A DNA stretch of 64,000 nucleotides from a virus (IMGVR_UViG_3300021400_000025:86479-150478), one strand, 5' to 3'. Positions 53,229-57,697 are shown, numbered from the stretch's first letter. The notes: generated by a model not told the origin, from the sequence alone. Made by a program: numbers and translations.

Positions 53229-53993
53229 ATGAACCTTGGAATCCCAGATTGTTGCCCCGTGTGTGGGGGCAAACTTGAAATCATCACGTCAAAGGATGGC
53301 GTGAAGAACCTGTTTTGTGTGAACGAAAAATGCCCTTCGCGCTTCAACGAGCAAGTATCCGCGTTCTGCGAGAGGCTTGGCATCATGGGCGTTTCCAACA
53401 CAACCCTTGAGAATTGGGGCATCAAGACCATACAAGACATAGTGGATTTCAAGCCCAATCCAGCGTACAAGAACGAGGTGAAATTTGCCGAGGAACTTGA
53501 CAAGAAGATGTGGAACGCCAGCAAAGAAAGCATCTTCATCGCGTTGTCCGCGCTTGTGTATGGCGTTGGAAGAAGGGAAATGAAGAAGTTCTGGGACAAC
53601 TGGGGTTCTGGTTGCCTTGACAGTCTGATTTCAATTGAGAACCCATCCGTGAAGGAGCAGATGATTATGGACTCGTTGAAGGTTGTCAAGGAGGCGTATT
53701 TCTCCATTGTTGACAATCCGAAGTACAACGAGCCGAAGGTGGTTGAAACCCCCAAAGTGGATTCAAGCAAAGGGAGCATCTGCTTCACCGGCAAACTTGA
53801 AACCATGACCCGTTCTGTTGCCCAGGACAAGGCGAGGAAGCTGGGCTACGAAATTGCGGAGTCCGTTGCGAAGGGGCTTGGCACATTGGTTGTTGCTGAC
53901 GCCGGACTGAAGGGTGAACCATCGTCAAAGCTGAAGAAGGCGCAGAAGTTGGGAATTCGCATCATGAGCGAGACCGAGTTCAACGCGCTTTAA
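53229..53993 (+). CDS. ligA: NAD-dependent DNA ligase C-terminal module (Zn finger, HhH, BRCT), encoded as a separate gene
   Basis: CPVCGGKL...C.NEKCP is the LigA-type Zn finger. The C-terminal ICFTGKLETMTRSVAQDKARKLGYEIAESVAKGLGTLVVADAGLKGEPSSKLKKAQKLGIRIMSETEF is a BRCT domain. Confidence 0.7.
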   Translation: MNLGIPDCCPVCGGKLEIITSKDGVKNLFCVNEKCPSRFNEQVSAFCERLGIMGVSNTTLENWGIKTIQDIVDFKPNPAYKNEVKFAEELDKKMWNASKESIFIALSALVYGVGRREMKKFWDNWGSGCLDSLISIENPSVKEQMIMDSLKVVKEAYFSIVDNPKYNEPKVVETPKVDSSKGSICFTGKLETMTRSVAQDKARKLGYEIAESVAKGLGTLVVADAGLKGEPSSKLKKAQKLGIRIMSETEFNAL

Positions 53994-54009
53994 GGAGAAG
54001 AAGAGCAAA

Positions 54010-54276
54010 ATGAAGATGATGGCGAGAGGAGAGGACACCCGCTACTGGTTAGCAGTGGTTCGAGTGGACGGCAAGGTCGTCCCACAGTTCGGTGGGAAGC
54101 CAGTAAATTGGCTAACAGCACATAGCCGAATGGAGAGGTTCAAGAATATGAAGAGATACTGGATTGGAGCGGGTGAGTTCCCAGTAAAGTCACTGAGGTT
54201 GGTTGAGATCACGACCAAGTGGAAGCGAGTAGTGGAGAGCGAGGACAAGACAACCACGAAGGAAGAGGATATTTAG
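54010..54276 (+). CDS. hypothetical protein (88 aa), TAG-terminated
   Basis: ORF track. Confidence 0.45.
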   Translation: MKMMARGEDTRYWLAVVRVDGKVVPQFGGKPVNWLTAHSRMERFKNMKRYWIGAGEFPVKSLRLVEITTKWKRVVESEDKTTTKEEDI

Positions 54277-54292
54277 GAAAGGAGAACGAGAC

Positions 54293-54835
54293 ATGTACGG
54301 AGACAAGAACACAATCAAGGACAAGTTGCCGAGCTGGTGGAAGTATGGCGACCCTCTCTACTACTGCGAAGAGGACGACACCCTTTGGACTTCCCAGGAA
54401 GAAGTGTCAATCCATTGGTATGACATCCGCATCAATAACATCGTGAATCTTCTCAACAAGGCGCGAAACGAAGCTGCGGAGCATCTGGCTGGAATGAGCA
54501 GATGCAAGAGCATGTATCCCATATACCAGAAGGAGATTGACAAAGCCAACGAACGGCTCAAGGTGCTTCTGGCTTCAAGGGATTGGCGCGAGACGAACAG
54601 CTCCCATGCCGACAAGAGGCGCGAGGTGGTGACTCTTCAGTACAAGAGGTACGAGTGGCTTGACAAACTCCACAAGGAGCAGCGGACGTTTGCTCAGCTG
54701 AAGGTGGCGTACAAGATGGCGAAGGAGGCTGTGGCTGACTTTGAGAAGATGCTCAAGGAGTATCAGACCAAAAGGGATGCCACAAGGGAACACTGGAACA
54801 AGGCGCAGGAAGCTGAGAAGAACAAGGAGAAATGA
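54293..54835 (+). CDS. hypothetical protein (180 aa)
   Basis: ORF track. SD aggaaaggagaacg. Confidence 0.5.
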   Translation: MYGDKNTIKDKLPSWWKYGDPLYYCEEDDTLWTSQEEVSIHWYDIRINNIVNLLNKARNEAAEHLAGMSRCKSMYPIYQKEIDKANERLKVLLASRDWRETNSSHADKRREVVTLQYKRYEWLDKLHKEQRTFAQLKVAYKMAKEAVADFEKMLKEYQTKRDATREHWNKAQEAEKNKEK

Positions 54836-55275
54836 AAATGGAGAACTGGATTCCAATAGACGAGTCTACTCTTGTTTGCGAAATGGCGAACAAGAACAAG
54901 GCTCAGACCCATCTACCGATGAACATTTGGATTGACGAAAACCAGACCTACATCAATGGACATCATTCCAAGAGGGTGAAGTTTCAGCTTGACCATGGGA
55001 ATCGAATGAACCTATCCAGATTTGGGACTATGGACTTGAATGGAAACCTTCACTGTGAGGACATTGGAGAATTGAGCCAAGAAGACATCAATGCGCTTCG
55101 CAATTTCGTTCTGAACAACAAAACAGCACTCGAACATGTTGCTGACAACGACATTTGGTTGGACGAAATCTGGCCGAGCATCATATTGGGTGGAGAACCG
55201 GCATCATTTGAGGAAATCCAAAAGTTGAACCTCAAAGTGGATGAACTGATAGAGTACAACAACTCGCTGGATTGA
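54832..55275 (+). CDS. hypothetical protein (147 aa)
   Basis: ORF track. Confidence 0.5.
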   Translation: MKMENWIPIDESTLVCEMANKNKAQTHLPMNIWIDENQTYINGHHSKRVKFQLDHGNRMNLSRFGTMDLNGNLHCEDIGELSQEDINALRNFVLNNKTALEHVADNDIWLDEIWPSIILGGEPASFEEIQKLNLKVDELIEYNNSLD

Positions 55276-55607
55276 TGCGAGAAGGAGCAGACAAAATGAC
55301 ACTCTACATGAAGAAGAGCCCGATTTACTACACCATCTTCATACAGGGCTTCAAGGACAAGAATGGGTGGTATCTCTCCAACGAGGATGAGATTGACGAG
55401 TTTGCGAAGAAGTTCAACTTGGACTGGCACTGGAACATGAGGAAGGGGGTTCTTTCATTCAAGGACAAGTCAGATGGGGAAAAGATCTATAGACCTGGAT
55501 ATGTCCAGATTGGGGATGTTGTTGCAGCCTATGACGATTGGGGGACATTGCGTGTTGAGGTCTGTACTTCCGAGGAATTCGAGAAGAAGTTCATCAAGGT
55601 TGACTAA
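55272..55607 (+). CDS. hypothetical protein (111 aa)
   Basis: ORF track. Confidence 0.5.
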   Translation: MMREGADKMTLYMKKSPIYYTIFIQGFKDKNGWYLSNEDEIDEFAKKFNLDWHWNMRKGVLSFKDKSDGEKIYRPGYVQIGDVVAAYDDWGTLRVEVCTSEEFEKKFIKVD

Positions 55608-55850: not shown

Positions 55851-55853
55851 TTC

Positions 55854-56150
55854 ATGGACACACCATCAATTGAGGAACGCATTGCCGATTTCCAGAGGCA
55901 ATTGGATGTGGTGAGGGAGAAGATGAAGAGAGTGGAGGAATCGTCCCCCAAAATCTACATCAACCTCCGCCAGTACATGAATCGGCTCAGAGAACTCAAG
56001 GGCAAGGAACTTGACAGCAAGGATGAATTGGATTTCGTCCGCCACCAAGTCAAGGCTTTGCTTGCCGACAAGGAGCAGATTGAGAAGGAATATCAGGAGT
56101 TGAAGCAGAAGGAACGTGAGATTCTTCTGTACATTGAAGAACTCAAATAG
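55854..56150 (+). CDS. coiled-coil protein (98 aa), TAG-terminated
   Basis: ORF track. Confidence 0.45.
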   Translation: MDTPSIEERIADFQRQLDVVREKMKRVEESSPKIYINLRQYMNRLRELKGKELDSKDELDFVRHQVKALLADKEQIEKEYQELKQKEREILLYIEELK

Positions 56151-56164
56151 AAAGGAAACTGACA

Positions 56165-56536
56165 ATGGCTGCGAAATTCAAGATTGACAAGTTGAAGGGC
56201 TTCTTCAAGACCATGGCTGAAATCGAAAAGCGAATTGAGGAGATTGCACCGCTCTGCACGGACATCACTTCACGCGAGGACATCATTGGATTCAGCTACG
56301 ACGATGACGGCAGCATTATCATAAGGGTGTATAGCAGCGACTGTGGCAACGATGCCTATTGGTTCCCGCTTGAATATCTCGCCATGGATGACGAGGAGAT
56401 TCTGAAGTCCGAGAAGAAAAAGGACGAATTGGCAAGGAAACTTCGGGAGCAAGAGGAACTCAAGGAGAAAAAGGCAAAGGAGAGGGCTGAACGCAAGGAA
56501 TACGAACGCCTCAAGAAGAAGTACGAGGGTAGTTGA
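56165..56536 (+). CDS. hypothetical protein (123 aa) with a K/E-rich C-terminus
   Basis: ORF track. Confidence 0.5.
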   Translation: MAAKFKIDKLKGFFKTMAEIEKRIEEIAPLCTDITSREDIIGFSYDDDGSIIIRVYSSDCGNDAYWFPLEYLAMDDEEILKSEKKKDELARKLREQEELKEKKAKERAERKEYERLKKKYEGS

Positions 56537-56570
56537 CAACCTGCCAGAAATGTGATATAATATAGGTGTT
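56531..56570 (+). promoter_or_regulatory. early promoter (TTGACA-N18-TGTGATATAATATAGGTG)
   Basis: Member of the conserved promoter family. Confidence 0.5.
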
Positions 56571-56590
56571 TCAAGCAAAGGAGAAACAAG

Positions 56591-57697
56591 ATGAACGACA
56601 TCAAGCAGAGAATTGTTGAAGCGAACAAGGCATACCGGGAAGGTCAGCCATTCCTATCGGACCAGGAGTATGACGACCTTTTGGAATCCCTCAAGGCATC
56701 CATGTCCGAGGAAGAGTACGAGGCTTTCGTTTCCACCTTGAACGAGGGCAGCATTGAAAAGAACCTTGATGGAAAGGTGAAGCATCCGTTCATTATGGGG
56801 AGCCTGACCAAGATTAAGGCAGAGGAACCAGAAGAGGTCAAAAAGTTCATCAAGGAGAACATCGTTGGAAAAATGTCAGTCTCCGCGAAGGTGGATGGCA
56901 TTTCGTCAAGGGCCGAGTACCGAAATGGCAAGTTGGTTTCGCTCACCACCCGTGGGGATGGATATTTTGGTCAGGACATCACAAGCAAGGCGAAGTACAT
57001 CAAGGGACTTCCTCAGACCATACCCCATGGTCCGTGGGACAACTTCACAGGTTCCATTCGTGGCGAGTTGGTTATCATGCGCTCGGACTTTGAGGGAATC
57101 AAGGACAAGTACGCCAACCCCCGCAATGCTGCCGCAGGAATCATGAACCGCAAGGATGGTGACAAGAAGTTCAACGAGGCTGAAGCAAGGCTTGTGTCTT
57201 TCGTCCCCTACACCATTCTGGGGAATCAGTATGCCAAGGAAGAGCAGTTTGGAATTCTCAAAGACATGGGCTTCATGGTAGCTGACAATGTTGTTGTCAA
57301 TCCAAATGGGCAAGACTGGCGTGGGGATGACATCGTTGATTGGCTTTTCAAGACTGCCCAGGAAGAACTCCCCTATGAGACCGATGGGCTTGTGATTTGC
57401 GATTCTGAGTGGAGGAACGAGGACAAGTACCGCCCGGATGGCTGCAAAGCGTTCAAAATCAACTTGGGAGTTGGTGTGACCAAGCTGATTGGCATTGACT
57501 GGGGCACTCCCTCAGCAAATGGCAAGTTCACCCCGGTTGGCATCCTCGACCCCATTCAGCTTTGTGGCACTACTGTCAAGCGCGTGACACTCAACAATAT
57601 ATCGTATATCGAAAGACTCGGAATAGAAGTGGGGAAGAAACTTCGCATCAGGAAGTCCGGAGACATCATTCCTCAGGTTCTTGAAGTGCTTGATTGA
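56591..57697 (+). CDS. ligA: NAD-dependent DNA ligase catalytic core (Ia, adenylation and OB domains only). The Zn-HhH-BRCT module is the separate gene 53229..53993
   Basis: The KxDG adenylation motif is SAKVDGIS. The OB-domain end [39 protein letters not shown] aligns to LigA V.RATLHN...GD.V.V.RAGDVIP.V. The ORF stops right after the OB domain. Confidence 0.75.

What the first reader, a model, noticed from the sequence alone, without database searches (positions are those of the whole stretch)
53229..57697. NAD-dependent DNA ligase split into two separately encoded genes, in reversed order
Gene 56591..57697 encodes the Ia, adenylation (KxDG) and OB domains and stops right after the OB fold. 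Gene 53229..53993, 2.6 kb upstream, encodes the Zn-finger, HhH and BRCT module that normally forms the LigA C-terminus. Both have their own SD sequences. Seven unrelated small genes lie between them. This implies either trans-assembly of a split ligase or a minimal ligase plus a free DNA-binding/BRCT factor.
Basis: partly seen in the sequence, partly recalled or inferred. Interest (0 to 1): 0.75.

Follow-up and report, generated by a model that had tools for sequence, protein, structure and literature searches.

The report
Two-gene phage DNA ligase, halves reversed
An uncultivated jumbo phage of about 420 kb encodes its NAD+-dependent DNA ligase as two separate genes in swapped order 2.6 kb apart; two-piece ligases are already known from T5-like phages (one has a solved structure), so this is an independently evolved, more scrambled variant of a known arrangement rather than a new kind of enzyme.

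Summary
ORF 56591-57697 is the Ia-adenylation-OB half of LigA. ORF 53229-53993 is the Zn-finger/HhH/BRCT half. Together they cover the LigA model TIGR00575 at 4-378 and 390-652. Seven small unrelated genes lie between them.

An independent assembly shows both halves in the same arrangement, so it is not an artefact. Both halves are under purifying selection, and the catalytic and Zn-binding residues are conserved.

A split LigA is not new. T5-like phages carry "subunit A/B" genes, and PDB 9HU3 is the "PR1 phage heterodimeric DNA ligase" on nicked DNA. That makes trans-assembly the favoured mechanism here.

What is new:
- This fission is independent of T5 (about 27% identity, nested among fused relatives).
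- The gene order is reversed. A basal relative has C and N abutting with overlapping stop and start codons.
- The spacer is a variable gene island of 3 to 3745 nt.
- Each half sits behind a promoter-like site of the same class.
- The C-module stem branch is 5.6 times longer than the N-module stem.
- Split genes occur in at least four lineages of this phage family.

Verdict: a new variant of a known kind, of moderate interest.

The parts
52993..53021 (+). Promoter-like site heading the C-half transcription unit (TTGACT-17-TATACT with extended -10 TG, followed by ATAGATG)
   Evidence: A counterpart lies upstream of the C-half unit in L012 (12/12 match), L013 and L007. This is a consensus match only; function is inferred.
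53047..53214 (+). Small ORF (55 aa) between the promoter-like site and the C-half; function unknown
   Evidence: Called gene in the 418-kb contig (L002 4457-4624). No family hit.
53229..53993 (+). LigA C-half (254 aa): C4 zinc finger (C9, C12, C30, C35), degenerate HhH helical domain (about 36-161), flexible linker, BRCT domain (183-253)
   Evidence: Pfam BRCT and LigA Zn finger. phrog_3869 positions 391-650 and phrog_3498. TIGR00575 positions 390-652. PDB 9hu3_B E 1.2e-10 and 1dgs residues 403-654. AF2 model pLDDT 80.8. Foldseek 9hu3_B E 5e-11. The four Cys are invariant in 55 homologues. dN/dS is 0.10-0.22.
54010..56536 (+). Variable spacer island of seven small genes: 54010-54276, 54293-54835, 54832-55275, 55272-55607, 55608-55850 (DUF7205 family), 55854-56150 and 56165-56536. 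None is ligase-related.
   Evidence: The gene content varies between relatives from 0 to 9 genes drawn from a shared pool.
56533..56561 (+). Perfect sigma-70 consensus promoter-like site (TTGACA-17-TATAAT, extended -10 TG, then ATAGGTG), 58 nt upstream of the N-half start
   Evidence: It is the only 12/12 match in the 64-kb window. It is conserved at the same position in L003, L012, L013 and L007, and absent in L015 (halves abut) and L019. Function is inferred.
56591..57697 (+). LigA N-half (368 aa): domain Ia (NMN-binding Y15, D23, Y26, D27), nucleotidyltransferase domain with catalytic K100 (KVDG) and motifs III, IIIa, IV and V, and the OB fold. It ends ...EVLD right after the OB fold.
   Evidence: Pfam PF01653 and PF03120. 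phrog_3869 positions 9-381. TIGR00575 positions 4-378. PDB 1v9p E 1.5e-28, 2owo E 2.8e-27 and 9hu3_A E 2e-21. Motif conservation in 115 homologues. dN/dS is 0.10-0.18.
50705..51388 (+). ThyX (flavin-dependent thymidylate synthase) gene; a synteny anchor found upstream of the ligase locus in fused, natural-order split and reversed relatives
   Evidence: Precomputed Pfam PF02511 on L002 2115-2798. It sits in the same relative position in L007, L008, L009 and L015.

Best explanation
The two genes encode the two halves of one NAD+-dependent DNA ligase, which works as a non-covalent two-subunit enzyme.

Proposed mechanism:
- The N-half (Ia-NTase-OB) reacts with NAD+ to adenylate Lys100 and carries out the chemistry at the nick.
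- The C-half (Zn finger-HhH-BRCT) supplies the DNA-binding arm that closes the clamp around nicked DNA, as in single-chain LigA and in the heterodimeric ligase of T5-like phage PR1.
- Both genes sit behind promoter-like sites of the same class, so they are probably expressed together.

Proposed evolution:
- The split arose inside this jumbo-phage lineage from a fused LigA, independently of the T5 split, at the same OB | Zn-finger linker.
- The order reversal happened once, giving abutting C-N genes. Small accessory genes were then inserted and lost between the halves.

What is shown: domain content, intact motifs, selection, co-occurrence, and the phylogenetic nesting and order of events.

What is inferred: physical association of the two proteins, ligase activity, and co-regulation.
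For: 1. Coverage of full-length LigA models is complementary and non-overlapping. The split falls within a few residues of the PR1 A/B boundary: the N-half aligns to 9hu3_A residues 17-336 of 339, and the C-half to 9hu3_B from residue 1.

2. There is a direct precedent. PDB 9HU3, 'PR1 phage heterodimeric DNA ligase in complex with 21-mer nicked DNA', is the top sequence and fold match of the C-half. Its chain B is 100% identical to a Providencia phage vB_PreS_PR1 protein annotated 'DNA ligase subunit B'. T5-like phages carry adjacent subunit A/B genes.

3. The functional residues are kept. KVDG, motifs III-V, the Ia NMN-site residues and the OB motifs are conserved in 97 split and 17 fused homologues. 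The four Zn-ligand Cys and most of the BRCT core are invariant in 55 C-halves.

4. Both halves are under purifying selection of similar strength, with pN far below pS and dN/dS of 0.10-0.22.

5. Every reversed-order locus long enough to show both has exactly one copy of each half on the same strand.

6. In the basal relative L015 the C stop and N start overlap (TGATG), the arrangement expected for translational coupling of two subunits.

7. Both units are headed by the same promoter subclass, TTGAC(A/T)-17-TGnTATA(A/C)TATAG(G/A)TG, which is conserved in relatives.

8. [quoted passage not shown] The N-half therefore lacks an essential element that the C-half carries.

9. Independent origin: identity to T5-like subunits is only 23-28%. 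The reversed clade is monophyletic (98% bootstrap) and sister (98%) to fused genes L005/L010 inside a mostly fused family.
Against: - No direct evidence of interaction or activity exists for these proteins.
- The C-half sits on a long stem branch (0.434 against 0.077 substitutions per site for the N-half). It has indels in the Zn finger and BRCT, has lost the LPxG(I/V)G hairpin of the last HhH motif, and has lost the acidic C-terminal tail. These changes could mean an altered function.
- Pfam HhH models do not match the C-half.
- The halves now have separate promoter-like sites and a growing, variable spacer. N and C trees conflict within the clade. The pair is therefore genetically uncoupled.
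- The motif IV lysine of E. coli LigA is Cys here. This is family-wide and also true of the fused forms, 111 of 115 sequences, so it does not bear on the split.
Confidence: 0.75

Rival explanations
1. The two products are functionally uncoupled. The N-half (Ia-NTase-OB) works alone as a minimal ligase, or with a different DNA-binding partner. The remodelled C-half has become a free-standing DNA-binding or BRCT scaffold factor with its own role.
For: - The C-module shows a burst of divergence and remodelling exactly on the stem of the reversed clade: C/N distance ratio 2.9 to the fused sister, against 1.25-1.29 elsewhere.
- The halves have separate promoter-like sites and a variable spacer of up to 3.7 kb.
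- N and C trees are incongruent within the clade.
- Standalone C-modules of 240-290 aa are common in metagenomes.
Against: - HhH is described as essential for LigA DNA binding (PMC7470946).
- The Zn finger, whose only known role is to bridge OB and HhH, keeps all four Cys invariant.
- The two halves co-occur strictly and in synteny in every informative locus.
- After the stem burst, the C-half is as constrained as the N-half.
- The PR1 enzyme shows that such halves do work as a heterodimer.
Confidence: 0.15
2. The halves are rejoined after transcription or translation, or by DNA rearrangement (split intein trans-splicing, RNA trans-splicing, or a programmed DNA rearrangement), to give a single-chain LigA.
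For: Split ('fractured') genes rejoined by split inteins are known in phage and environmental sequence (PMC2677866, listed).
Against: - There is no room for intein halves. The N-half aligns to LigA up to residue 367 of 368, and the C-half Zn finger starts at residue 9.
- No Rfam family, including introns and ribozymes, matches 52500-58500 at E up to 1.
- Only short AAG-rich chance repeats are present, with no recombination-site-like repeats.
- None of the seven spacer genes has a homing-endonuclease or recombinase domain.
- With the C-half upstream of the N-half on the same strand, no simple deletion or read-through can join them in N-to-C order.
Confidence: 0.02
3. The split is a decaying, non-functional ligase gene, or an assembly or sequencing artefact.
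For: None beyond the unusual arrangement itself.
Against: - The same arrangement is found in independent assemblies and, with different spacers, in 13 of the loci held here, spanning seven distinct spacer lengths.
- More than 90 distinct homologues of each half are intact and full length.
- pN is far below pS in both halves.
- Catalytic and structural residues are conserved.
Confidence: 0.02

Closest known systems
Heterodimeric NAD+-dependent DNA ligase of T5-like phages (Demerecviridae): T5 LigA/LigB 'subunit A and B'; Providencia phage PR1 enzyme, PDB 9HU3/9I5I
   Same: - The enzyme is split at the same OB | Zn-finger boundary, into a subunit of about 320-370 aa (Ia-NTase-OB) and one of about 250 aa (Zn-HhH-BRCT).
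- The PR1 B chain is the best sequence and fold match of the window's C-half.
- PHROGs holds separate families for each half, and both match: phrog_3359 and phrog_3498.
   Different: - In T5-like phages the genes are adjacent and in natural order, A then B, about 200 nt apart inside the replication module.
- Here the order is B-like then A-like, 2.6 kb apart with seven genes between, and each half has its own promoter-like site.
- Identity is only 23-28%.
- The window's clade is nested among fused jumbo-phage LigAs, so its fission is an independent event and not inherited from the T5 lineage.
Canonical single-chain bacterial LigA (E. coli 2OWO/4GLX, Thermus filiformis 1V9P/1DGS; TIGR00575)
   Same: The domain set and order of the reconstructed protein are the same: Ia, NTase with KxDG, OB, C4 Zn finger, HhH, BRCT. 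The Ia NMN-binding residues are conserved, which implies NAD+ use.
   Different: - There are two polypeptides instead of one.
- The roughly 10-residue OB-Zn linker is missing.
- The HhH domain is too divergent for Pfam.
- The motif IV Lys is replaced by Cys, a trait of the whole phage family.
- Both halves score far below the TIGR00575 full-length cutoff.
Fused LigA genes of the sister and cousin jumbo phages (L005/L006, L010/L011/L024, L009, L026 and others)
   Same: They belong to the same phage protein family. The N-module is 64-67% identical to the sister fused genes. ThyX lies upstream in the fused cousin L009, as it does in the window.
   Different: They are single ORFs of about 620-640 aa. 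Their C-module is only 32-35% identical to the window's C-half and keeps the LPxG(I/V)G hairpin and the acidic C-terminal tail.
Other replication enzymes split into distantly encoded genes in jumbo phages (for example the minimal DNA polymerase III alpha of group 2.2 jumbo phages; Iyer et al. 2021, PMC7824862)
   Same: [quoted passage not shown]
   Different: It is a different enzyme. That paper discusses NAD+ ligases in jumbo phages only as presence or absence, not as split genes.

Membership tests
NAD+-dependent DNA ligase (LigA) family | Domain Ia with NMN-binding residues (E. coli Y22, D32, Y35, D36), which confer NAD+ specificity | tested here: met
   The N-half has [19 protein letters not shown]15, D23, Y26 and D27 align with the E. 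coli residues and are conserved in 97 split and 17 fused homologues. The residue roles are from my own knowledge of the Shuman-lab mutagenesis work.
NAD+-dependent DNA ligase (LigA) family | Nucleotidyltransferase domain with catalytic KxDG lysine and motifs III, IIIa, IV and V | tested here: met
   PF01653, E 1e-27. K100 in SAKVDGIS, plus [22 protein letters not shown] and CKAFKIN, are conserved family-wide. One caveat: the motif IV Lys is Cys in 111 of 115 family members, fused forms included.
NAD+-dependent DNA ligase (LigA) family | LigA-type OB fold following the NTase domain | tested here: met
   PF03120, E 1e-18, residues 297-367. It aligns to 1v9p up to residue 392.
NAD+-dependent DNA ligase (LigA) family | C4 zinc finger after the OB fold | tested here: met
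   PF03119, E 3e-4 (21 bits, below the 25.8-bit cutoff), residues 9-36. C9, C12, C30 and C35 are invariant in 55 homologues. The model has a beta-hairpin pair at residues 15-30.
NAD+-dependent DNA ligase (LigA) family | Four-HhH DNA-binding domain | tested here: inconclusive
   There is no Pfam HhH hit. The eight-helix block at 36-161 in the AF2 model, together with Foldseek matches to 9hu3_B, 9hu3_F and LigA 9a6z_B and the TIGR00575 alignment across 390-652, supports homology. Only one invariant GxG hairpin (G112, G114) remains, and the last hairpin motif is lost.
NAD+-dependent DNA ligase (LigA) family | C-terminal BRCT domain | tested here: met
   PF00533, E 2.4e-7, above cutoff. Foldseek matches many BRCT domains. 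The BRCT core is invariant across homologues.
NAD+-dependent DNA ligase (LigA) family | All domains on one polypeptide (canonical architecture; full-length equivalog score) | tested here: not met
   There are two ORFs in reversed order. TIGR00575 scores are 204.5 and 79 bits against a cutoff of 444.
Heterodimeric split LigA of T5-like phages (PR1/T5 type) | Split between the OB fold and the Zn finger into catalytic and DNA-binding subunits | tested here: met
   The N-half aligns to 9hu3_A residues 17-336 of 339. The C-half aligns to 9hu3_B residues 1-239 of 248.
Heterodimeric split LigA of T5-like phages (PR1/T5 type) | Adjacent genes in the order A (catalytic) then B | tested here: not met
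   In T5-like phage bux, A is at 4001-4972 and B at 5175-5954 of L001. In the window the B-like gene is 2.6 kb upstream of the A-like gene.
Heterodimeric split LigA of T5-like phages (PR1/T5 type) | Common descent of the split state with the T5-like genes | tested here: not met
   Identity is 23-28%. The T5-like sequence is the outgroup, and the window's clade is nested among fused jumbo-phage LigAs with 98% bootstrap support.
Heterodimeric split LigA of T5-like phages (PR1/T5 type) | Physical heterodimer that seals nicks | not testable with these tools
   This needs co-purification and nick-sealing assays, or a multimer structure prediction. Structure prediction accepts single chains from this window only.

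The most novel reading that the evidence does not exclude
After the rearrangement, the remodelled C-half became a separately regulated, exchangeable DNA-binding and nick-sensing subunit that is no longer dedicated to the ligase. It might serve other nucleotidyltransferases of the phage, such as the T4 Rnl1-like RNA ligase at 24926-26128, or gate when the catalytic half is active. The burst of change on the C-module stem branch would then mark a change of function and not only adaptation to working in trans.
Probability: 0.1. Interest if true: 0.6.

Novelty: new variant of a known kind. Interest (0 to 1): 0.4.

Why it matters
It shows that the OB | Zn-finger linker of LigA is a recurrent natural break point. 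Split genes occur in at least four lineages of one jumbo-phage family, in addition to the T5-like phages. The two modules stay under selection even when their genes are reordered, separated by up to 3.7 kb of unrelated genes, given separate promoter-like sites and reassorted between phages.

The loci form a natural series: fused, then split and adjacent, then reversed and abutting, then reversed with a growing spacer. That series is useful for three things:
- Studying how multidomain enzymes come apart.
- Identifying what a trans interface needs.
- Engineering two-component NAD+ ligases.

For annotation, a LigA of about 365 aa that 'lacks' its C-terminus in a jumbo phage should prompt a search for a separate BRCT protein of about 255 aa nearby, on either side.

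Tried and rejected
- **Megablast of 53000-58000 against GenBank phages:** no match. The genome has no cultured close relative.
- **PHROGs on ten large window proteins:** mostly no hits, so the phage could not be placed taxonomically.
- **Paper searches for 9HU3/9I5I, 'heterodimeric DNA ligase' and T5 LigA/LigB nick biology:** no primary paper on the PR1 enzyme is in the library. Wang, Nair and Shuman 2008 (PMC2516987) is not held.
- **Relics of a second N or C module**, as predicted by a tandem-duplication origin: a profile HMM search of all six frames of the window and six reversed loci found none, with everything else at E of 0.36 or higher.
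- **Donor lineage for the C-half:** exhaustive phmmer against 1.84 billion representatives found nothing closer than about 36-45% identity outside the clade.
- **Introns or ribozymes:** no Rfam match at E up to 1.
- **Recombination-site repeats:** only short AAG-rich chance repeats.
- **Homing endonuclease or intein explanation:** no such domains and no extra residues at the split ends.
- **Motif IV Lys-to-Cys as a sign of inactivation:** rejected, because it is conserved in the fused relatives too.
- **L008 versus L029/L030 junction alignment:** the DNA was too diverged to show how that fission arose.
- **The first NJ script timed out** and was rerun.
- **A concatenated N+C chain was not submitted** for structure prediction.

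Full report
**Observation.** Both ORFs are present exactly as described.

- The 368-aa product of 56591-57697 carries the LigA adenylation domain (PF01653, E 1e-27) and the LigA OB fold (PF03120, E 1e-18). It aligns with Thermus filiformis and E. coli LigA up to its penultimate residue.
- The 254-aa product of 53229-53993 carries a BRCT domain (E 2.4e-7) and a sub-threshold LigA zinc finger (E 3e-4).
- Against full-length LigA models the two proteins are complementary: phrog_3869 positions 9-381 and 391-650, and TIGR00575 positions 4-378 and 390-652.
- Seven small ORFs with no ligase-related domain fill the 2597 nt between them.
- Both ligase genes have Shine-Dalgarno-like sequences upstream.
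- An independent Logan assembly (L003) has the identical arrangement, and an NCBI contig (L004) covers part of it. It is not an artefact.

**What the genome is.** The N-half is encoded on a 418,130-bp metagenomic contig, and close relatives sit on contigs of 288-434 kb. This is an uncultivated jumbo phage. There is no nucleotide match among 50,697 GenBank phage records, and no phage record reaches 60% protein identity; the listed matches are at 23-32%. Genes are almost all on the + strand. ThyX lies upstream of the ligase locus in all arrangement types.

**Are the halves functional?**

- In 97 split and 17 fused homologues, the catalytic lysine motif (SAKVDGIS, K100), motifs III, IIIa, IV and V, the domain Ia NMN-site residues and the OB motifs are conserved.
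- The E. coli motif IV lysine is a cysteine here. That holds for 111 of 115 family members, including every fused one, so it is a family trait unrelated to the split.
- In 55 C-half homologues, the four zinc ligands (C9, C12, C30, C35) and most of the BRCT core are invariant.
- An AlphaFold2 model of the C-half (mean pLDDT 80.8) shows a zinc-finger hairpin region, an eight-helix block (36-161), a disordered linker and a BRCT fold.
- Its best Foldseek matches are 9hu3_B (E 5e-11), a LigA model (9a6z_B, E 1e-10) and 9hu3_F (TM 0.66), followed by many BRCT domains.
- Pairwise Nei-Gojobori estimates among five reversed-order genomes give pN far below pS for both halves, with dN/dS of 0.10-0.18 for N and 0.10-0.22 for C. 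dS is saturated, so the ratios are approximate.
- Neither half is a pseudogene.

**What is already known.**

[quoted passage not shown] In Salmonella phage bux they lie at 4001-4972 and 5175-5954 of L001. For T5 itself the annotation is in PMC3632103.
- PHROGs has separate families for each half, phrog_3359 and phrog_3498.
- PDB 9HU3/9I5I is titled 'PR1 phage heterodimeric DNA ligase in complex with 21-mer nicked DNA containing phage nick sequence' and was released on 2026-01-14. Its B chain is 100% identical to a Providencia phage vB_PreS_PR1 protein annotated 'DNA ligase subunit B'.
- A LigA split at the OB | Zn-finger boundary that works as a heterodimer is therefore an established kind of enzyme. 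I found no paper on it in the library.

**What differs here.**

*Independent origin.* The window's halves are only 23-28% identical to T5-like subunits. They belong to a jumbo-phage LigA family in which most members are fused. Of 86 sequences held (some duplicated between collections), 38 are fused, 13 reversed and 5 split in natural order. In the other 30 the C-module was not detected; these are mostly short contigs or distant ligases. In bootstrapped NJ trees of 37 paired modules, the reversed-order clade is monophyletic in the N-module tree (98%) and sister (98%) to the fused genes L005/L010.

*Reversal came first, then spreading.* The basal member L015 has the C-half and N-half abutting in reversed order, with overlapping stop and start codons (TGATG). 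Other members have spacers of 260, 1084, 1440, 1512, 2601 (the window) and 3745 nt. The spacers hold 1 to 9 small genes drawn from a shared pool, with presence and absence varying between genomes.

*Separate promoter-like sites.*
- A perfect TTGACA-17-TATAAT site with an extended -10 TG lies 58 nt upstream of the N-half. It is the only 12/12 match in the window, and it is conserved in L003, L012, L013 and L007.
- A site of the same subclass, TGnTATA(A/C)TATAG(G/A)TG, heads the C-half unit in the window and in relatives.
- All 16 sites of this general type in the window are on the + strand.
- Co-regulation of the two halves is inferred from this, not shown.

*The C-module changed abruptly.*
- The stem branch of the reversed clade is 0.077 substitutions per site in the N tree and 0.434 in the C tree.
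- The C/N distance ratio is 1.25 within the clade and 1.29 among other family members. It is 2.9 between the clade and its fused sister.
- The changes include a 5-residue insertion in the Zn finger, a 3-residue insertion in BRCT, replacement of the last HhH hairpin LPxG(I/V)G by NPSVKE, and loss of the acidic C-terminal tail. Identity in the second half of the HhH domain is only 16%.
- This is either a burst of adaptation to working in trans or a replacement of the C-module by a distant one. An exhaustive phmmer search found no donor closer than about 36-45% identity, so the question stays open.

*Reassortment.* Within the clade the N and C trees conflict. N pairs (window, L012) at 96% and (L013, L019) at 97%. 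C pairs (L012, L019) at 99%. Identities to the window are N 85 / C 78 for L012 and N 76 / C 86 for L013. The halves therefore reassort between phages.

**Recurrent fission.** Besides the reversed clade, split genes nested among fused relatives occur in:
- L008, with a 19-nt gap; its closest relative L029 is fused at 87% and 93% identity.
- L045, with a 60-nt gap.
- L046/L047, in natural order but 6.3-6.4 kb apart.
- L027/P0109.

The exhaustive search also shows many standalone C-modules of 240-290 aa interleaved with fused LigAs.

**Mechanism.** The favoured explanation (about 0.75) is a two-subunit ligase. The N-half reacts with NAD+ and performs the chemistry. The C-half supplies the Zn-HhH-BRCT arm that closes the clamp on nicked DNA, as in single-chain LigA. 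[quoted passage not shown] The PR1 structure shows that this works in trans.

Alternatives:
- *An autonomous N-half with a neofunctionalised C-half* (about 0.15). The C-module burst and the genetic uncoupling favour it. The invariant Zn ligands, strict co-occurrence and restored constraint count against it.
- *Rejoining by intein, RNA splicing or DNA rearrangement.* This is effectively excluded. There are no extra residues at the split ends, no Rfam hits, no meaningful repeats and no endonuclease domains in the spacer.
- *Pseudogenes or an artefact.* Excluded.

**Origin of the reversed order.** Three routes remain open:
- Fission followed by transposition of one half.
- Tandem duplication followed by reciprocal loss, the 'permutation by duplication' route stopped at the two-gene stage.
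- Capture of a foreign C-module upstream, followed by loss of the resident C-part.

The abutting C-N genes of L015 fit the second or third route. No relic of a second copy was found. The long C stem fits the third route or a post-fission burst. This is unresolved.

**Verdict.** The finding is real and correctly read, but the central idea of a split, trans-acting LigA is already known and structurally validated in T5-like phages. This case is a new, independently derived and more extreme variant: reversed order, a variable spacer island, twin promoter-like sites and a remodelled C-module. It sits in a jumbo-phage family where LigA fission recurs. Interest is moderate, at 0.4.

Noticed in passing
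window 12184, 21900, 22364, 24453, 24893, 32605, 34154, 36384, 40890, 43630, 45717, 46757, 49069, 52993, 56533, 58957 (start of the -35 element, + strand): There are 16 sigma-70-like promoter sites, all on the + strand and none on the - strand. Many have an extended -10 TG, and a subclass shares TGnTATA(A/C)TATAGGTG downstream. This looks like the phage's own promoter class, and it suggests a host with canonical -35/-10 promoters and SD-led translation.
   Followed up: partly
window 52939-52950: A C12 homopolymer lies immediately after the stop of the TM2-domain gene and 43 nt before the promoter-like site of the C-half unit. It is also present in the 418-kb contig (L002 4349-4360). It is the only C or G run of 9 or more in the window. 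It could be a slippage-prone tract or a sequencing-prone site.
   Followed up: no
window 57398-57400 (N-half residue C270, motif IV DGLVIC): The lysine of LigA motif IV (E. coli DGVVIK, K290) is Cys in 111 of 115 members of this jumbo-phage LigA family, fused and split alike. The T5-like subunit A has Arg there. This is an unusual active-site substitution that would be worth testing biochemically.
   Followed up: partly
L046 8001-9071 and about 15514; L047 8001-9071 and about 15382: A different lineage of the same family has a natural-order split with the C-module 6.3-6.4 kb downstream of the N-half. Its relatives L045 (split, 60-nt gap) and L042 (fused) cluster with it. This is another independent example of the halves drifting apart.
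   Followed up: partly
L019 7745-7759 and 7989-8003: The only gene in the L019 spacer (76 aa, DUF7205 family) is flanked by a 15-nt direct repeat, GGAGAATGAACAATG, that covers the RBS and start codon. One copy lies right after the C-half stop and one at the N-half start. It looks like a footprint of cassette insertion at the translation-initiation region.
   Followed up: no
C-termini of fused and natural-order relatives (for example L005, L009, L008, L046) compared with window 53979-53993: Family members outside the reversed clade end in an acidic tail with a terminal hydrophobic residue (...NVDDL...ESDVFAL...EEDVSDL...TLDDL). This resembles partner-binding tails of replication proteins. The reversed-order clade has lost it and ends at ...EFNAL.
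   Followed up: no
window 24926-26128 and 23184-23259: A T4 Rnl1-type RNA ligase ('RNA ligase and tail fiber protein attachment catalyst', phrog_562, E 1.7e-53) lies near a tRNA-Arg(TCT) gene. This may be a tRNA-repair or counter-defence module in the same genome.
   Followed up: no
window 37512-38558 and 42251-43645: There are weak PHROG hits to QueC-like queuosine-biosynthesis proteins (E 2.4e-5) and to DNA methyltransferases (E 1.8e-5). These hint at DNA modification functions.
   Followed up: no
window 55608-55850 (80 aa) and homologues L007 7720-7950, L012 9685-9903, L019 7757-7987: This is the most persistent spacer gene (Pfam DUF7205 in the precomputed annotation; phrog_2251, E 4e-7). 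It is found in four of the seven reversed-order spacers. It lies directly upstream of the N-half unit in L007, L012 and L019, whereas in the window two further genes follow it. Its function is unknown.
   Followed up: partly
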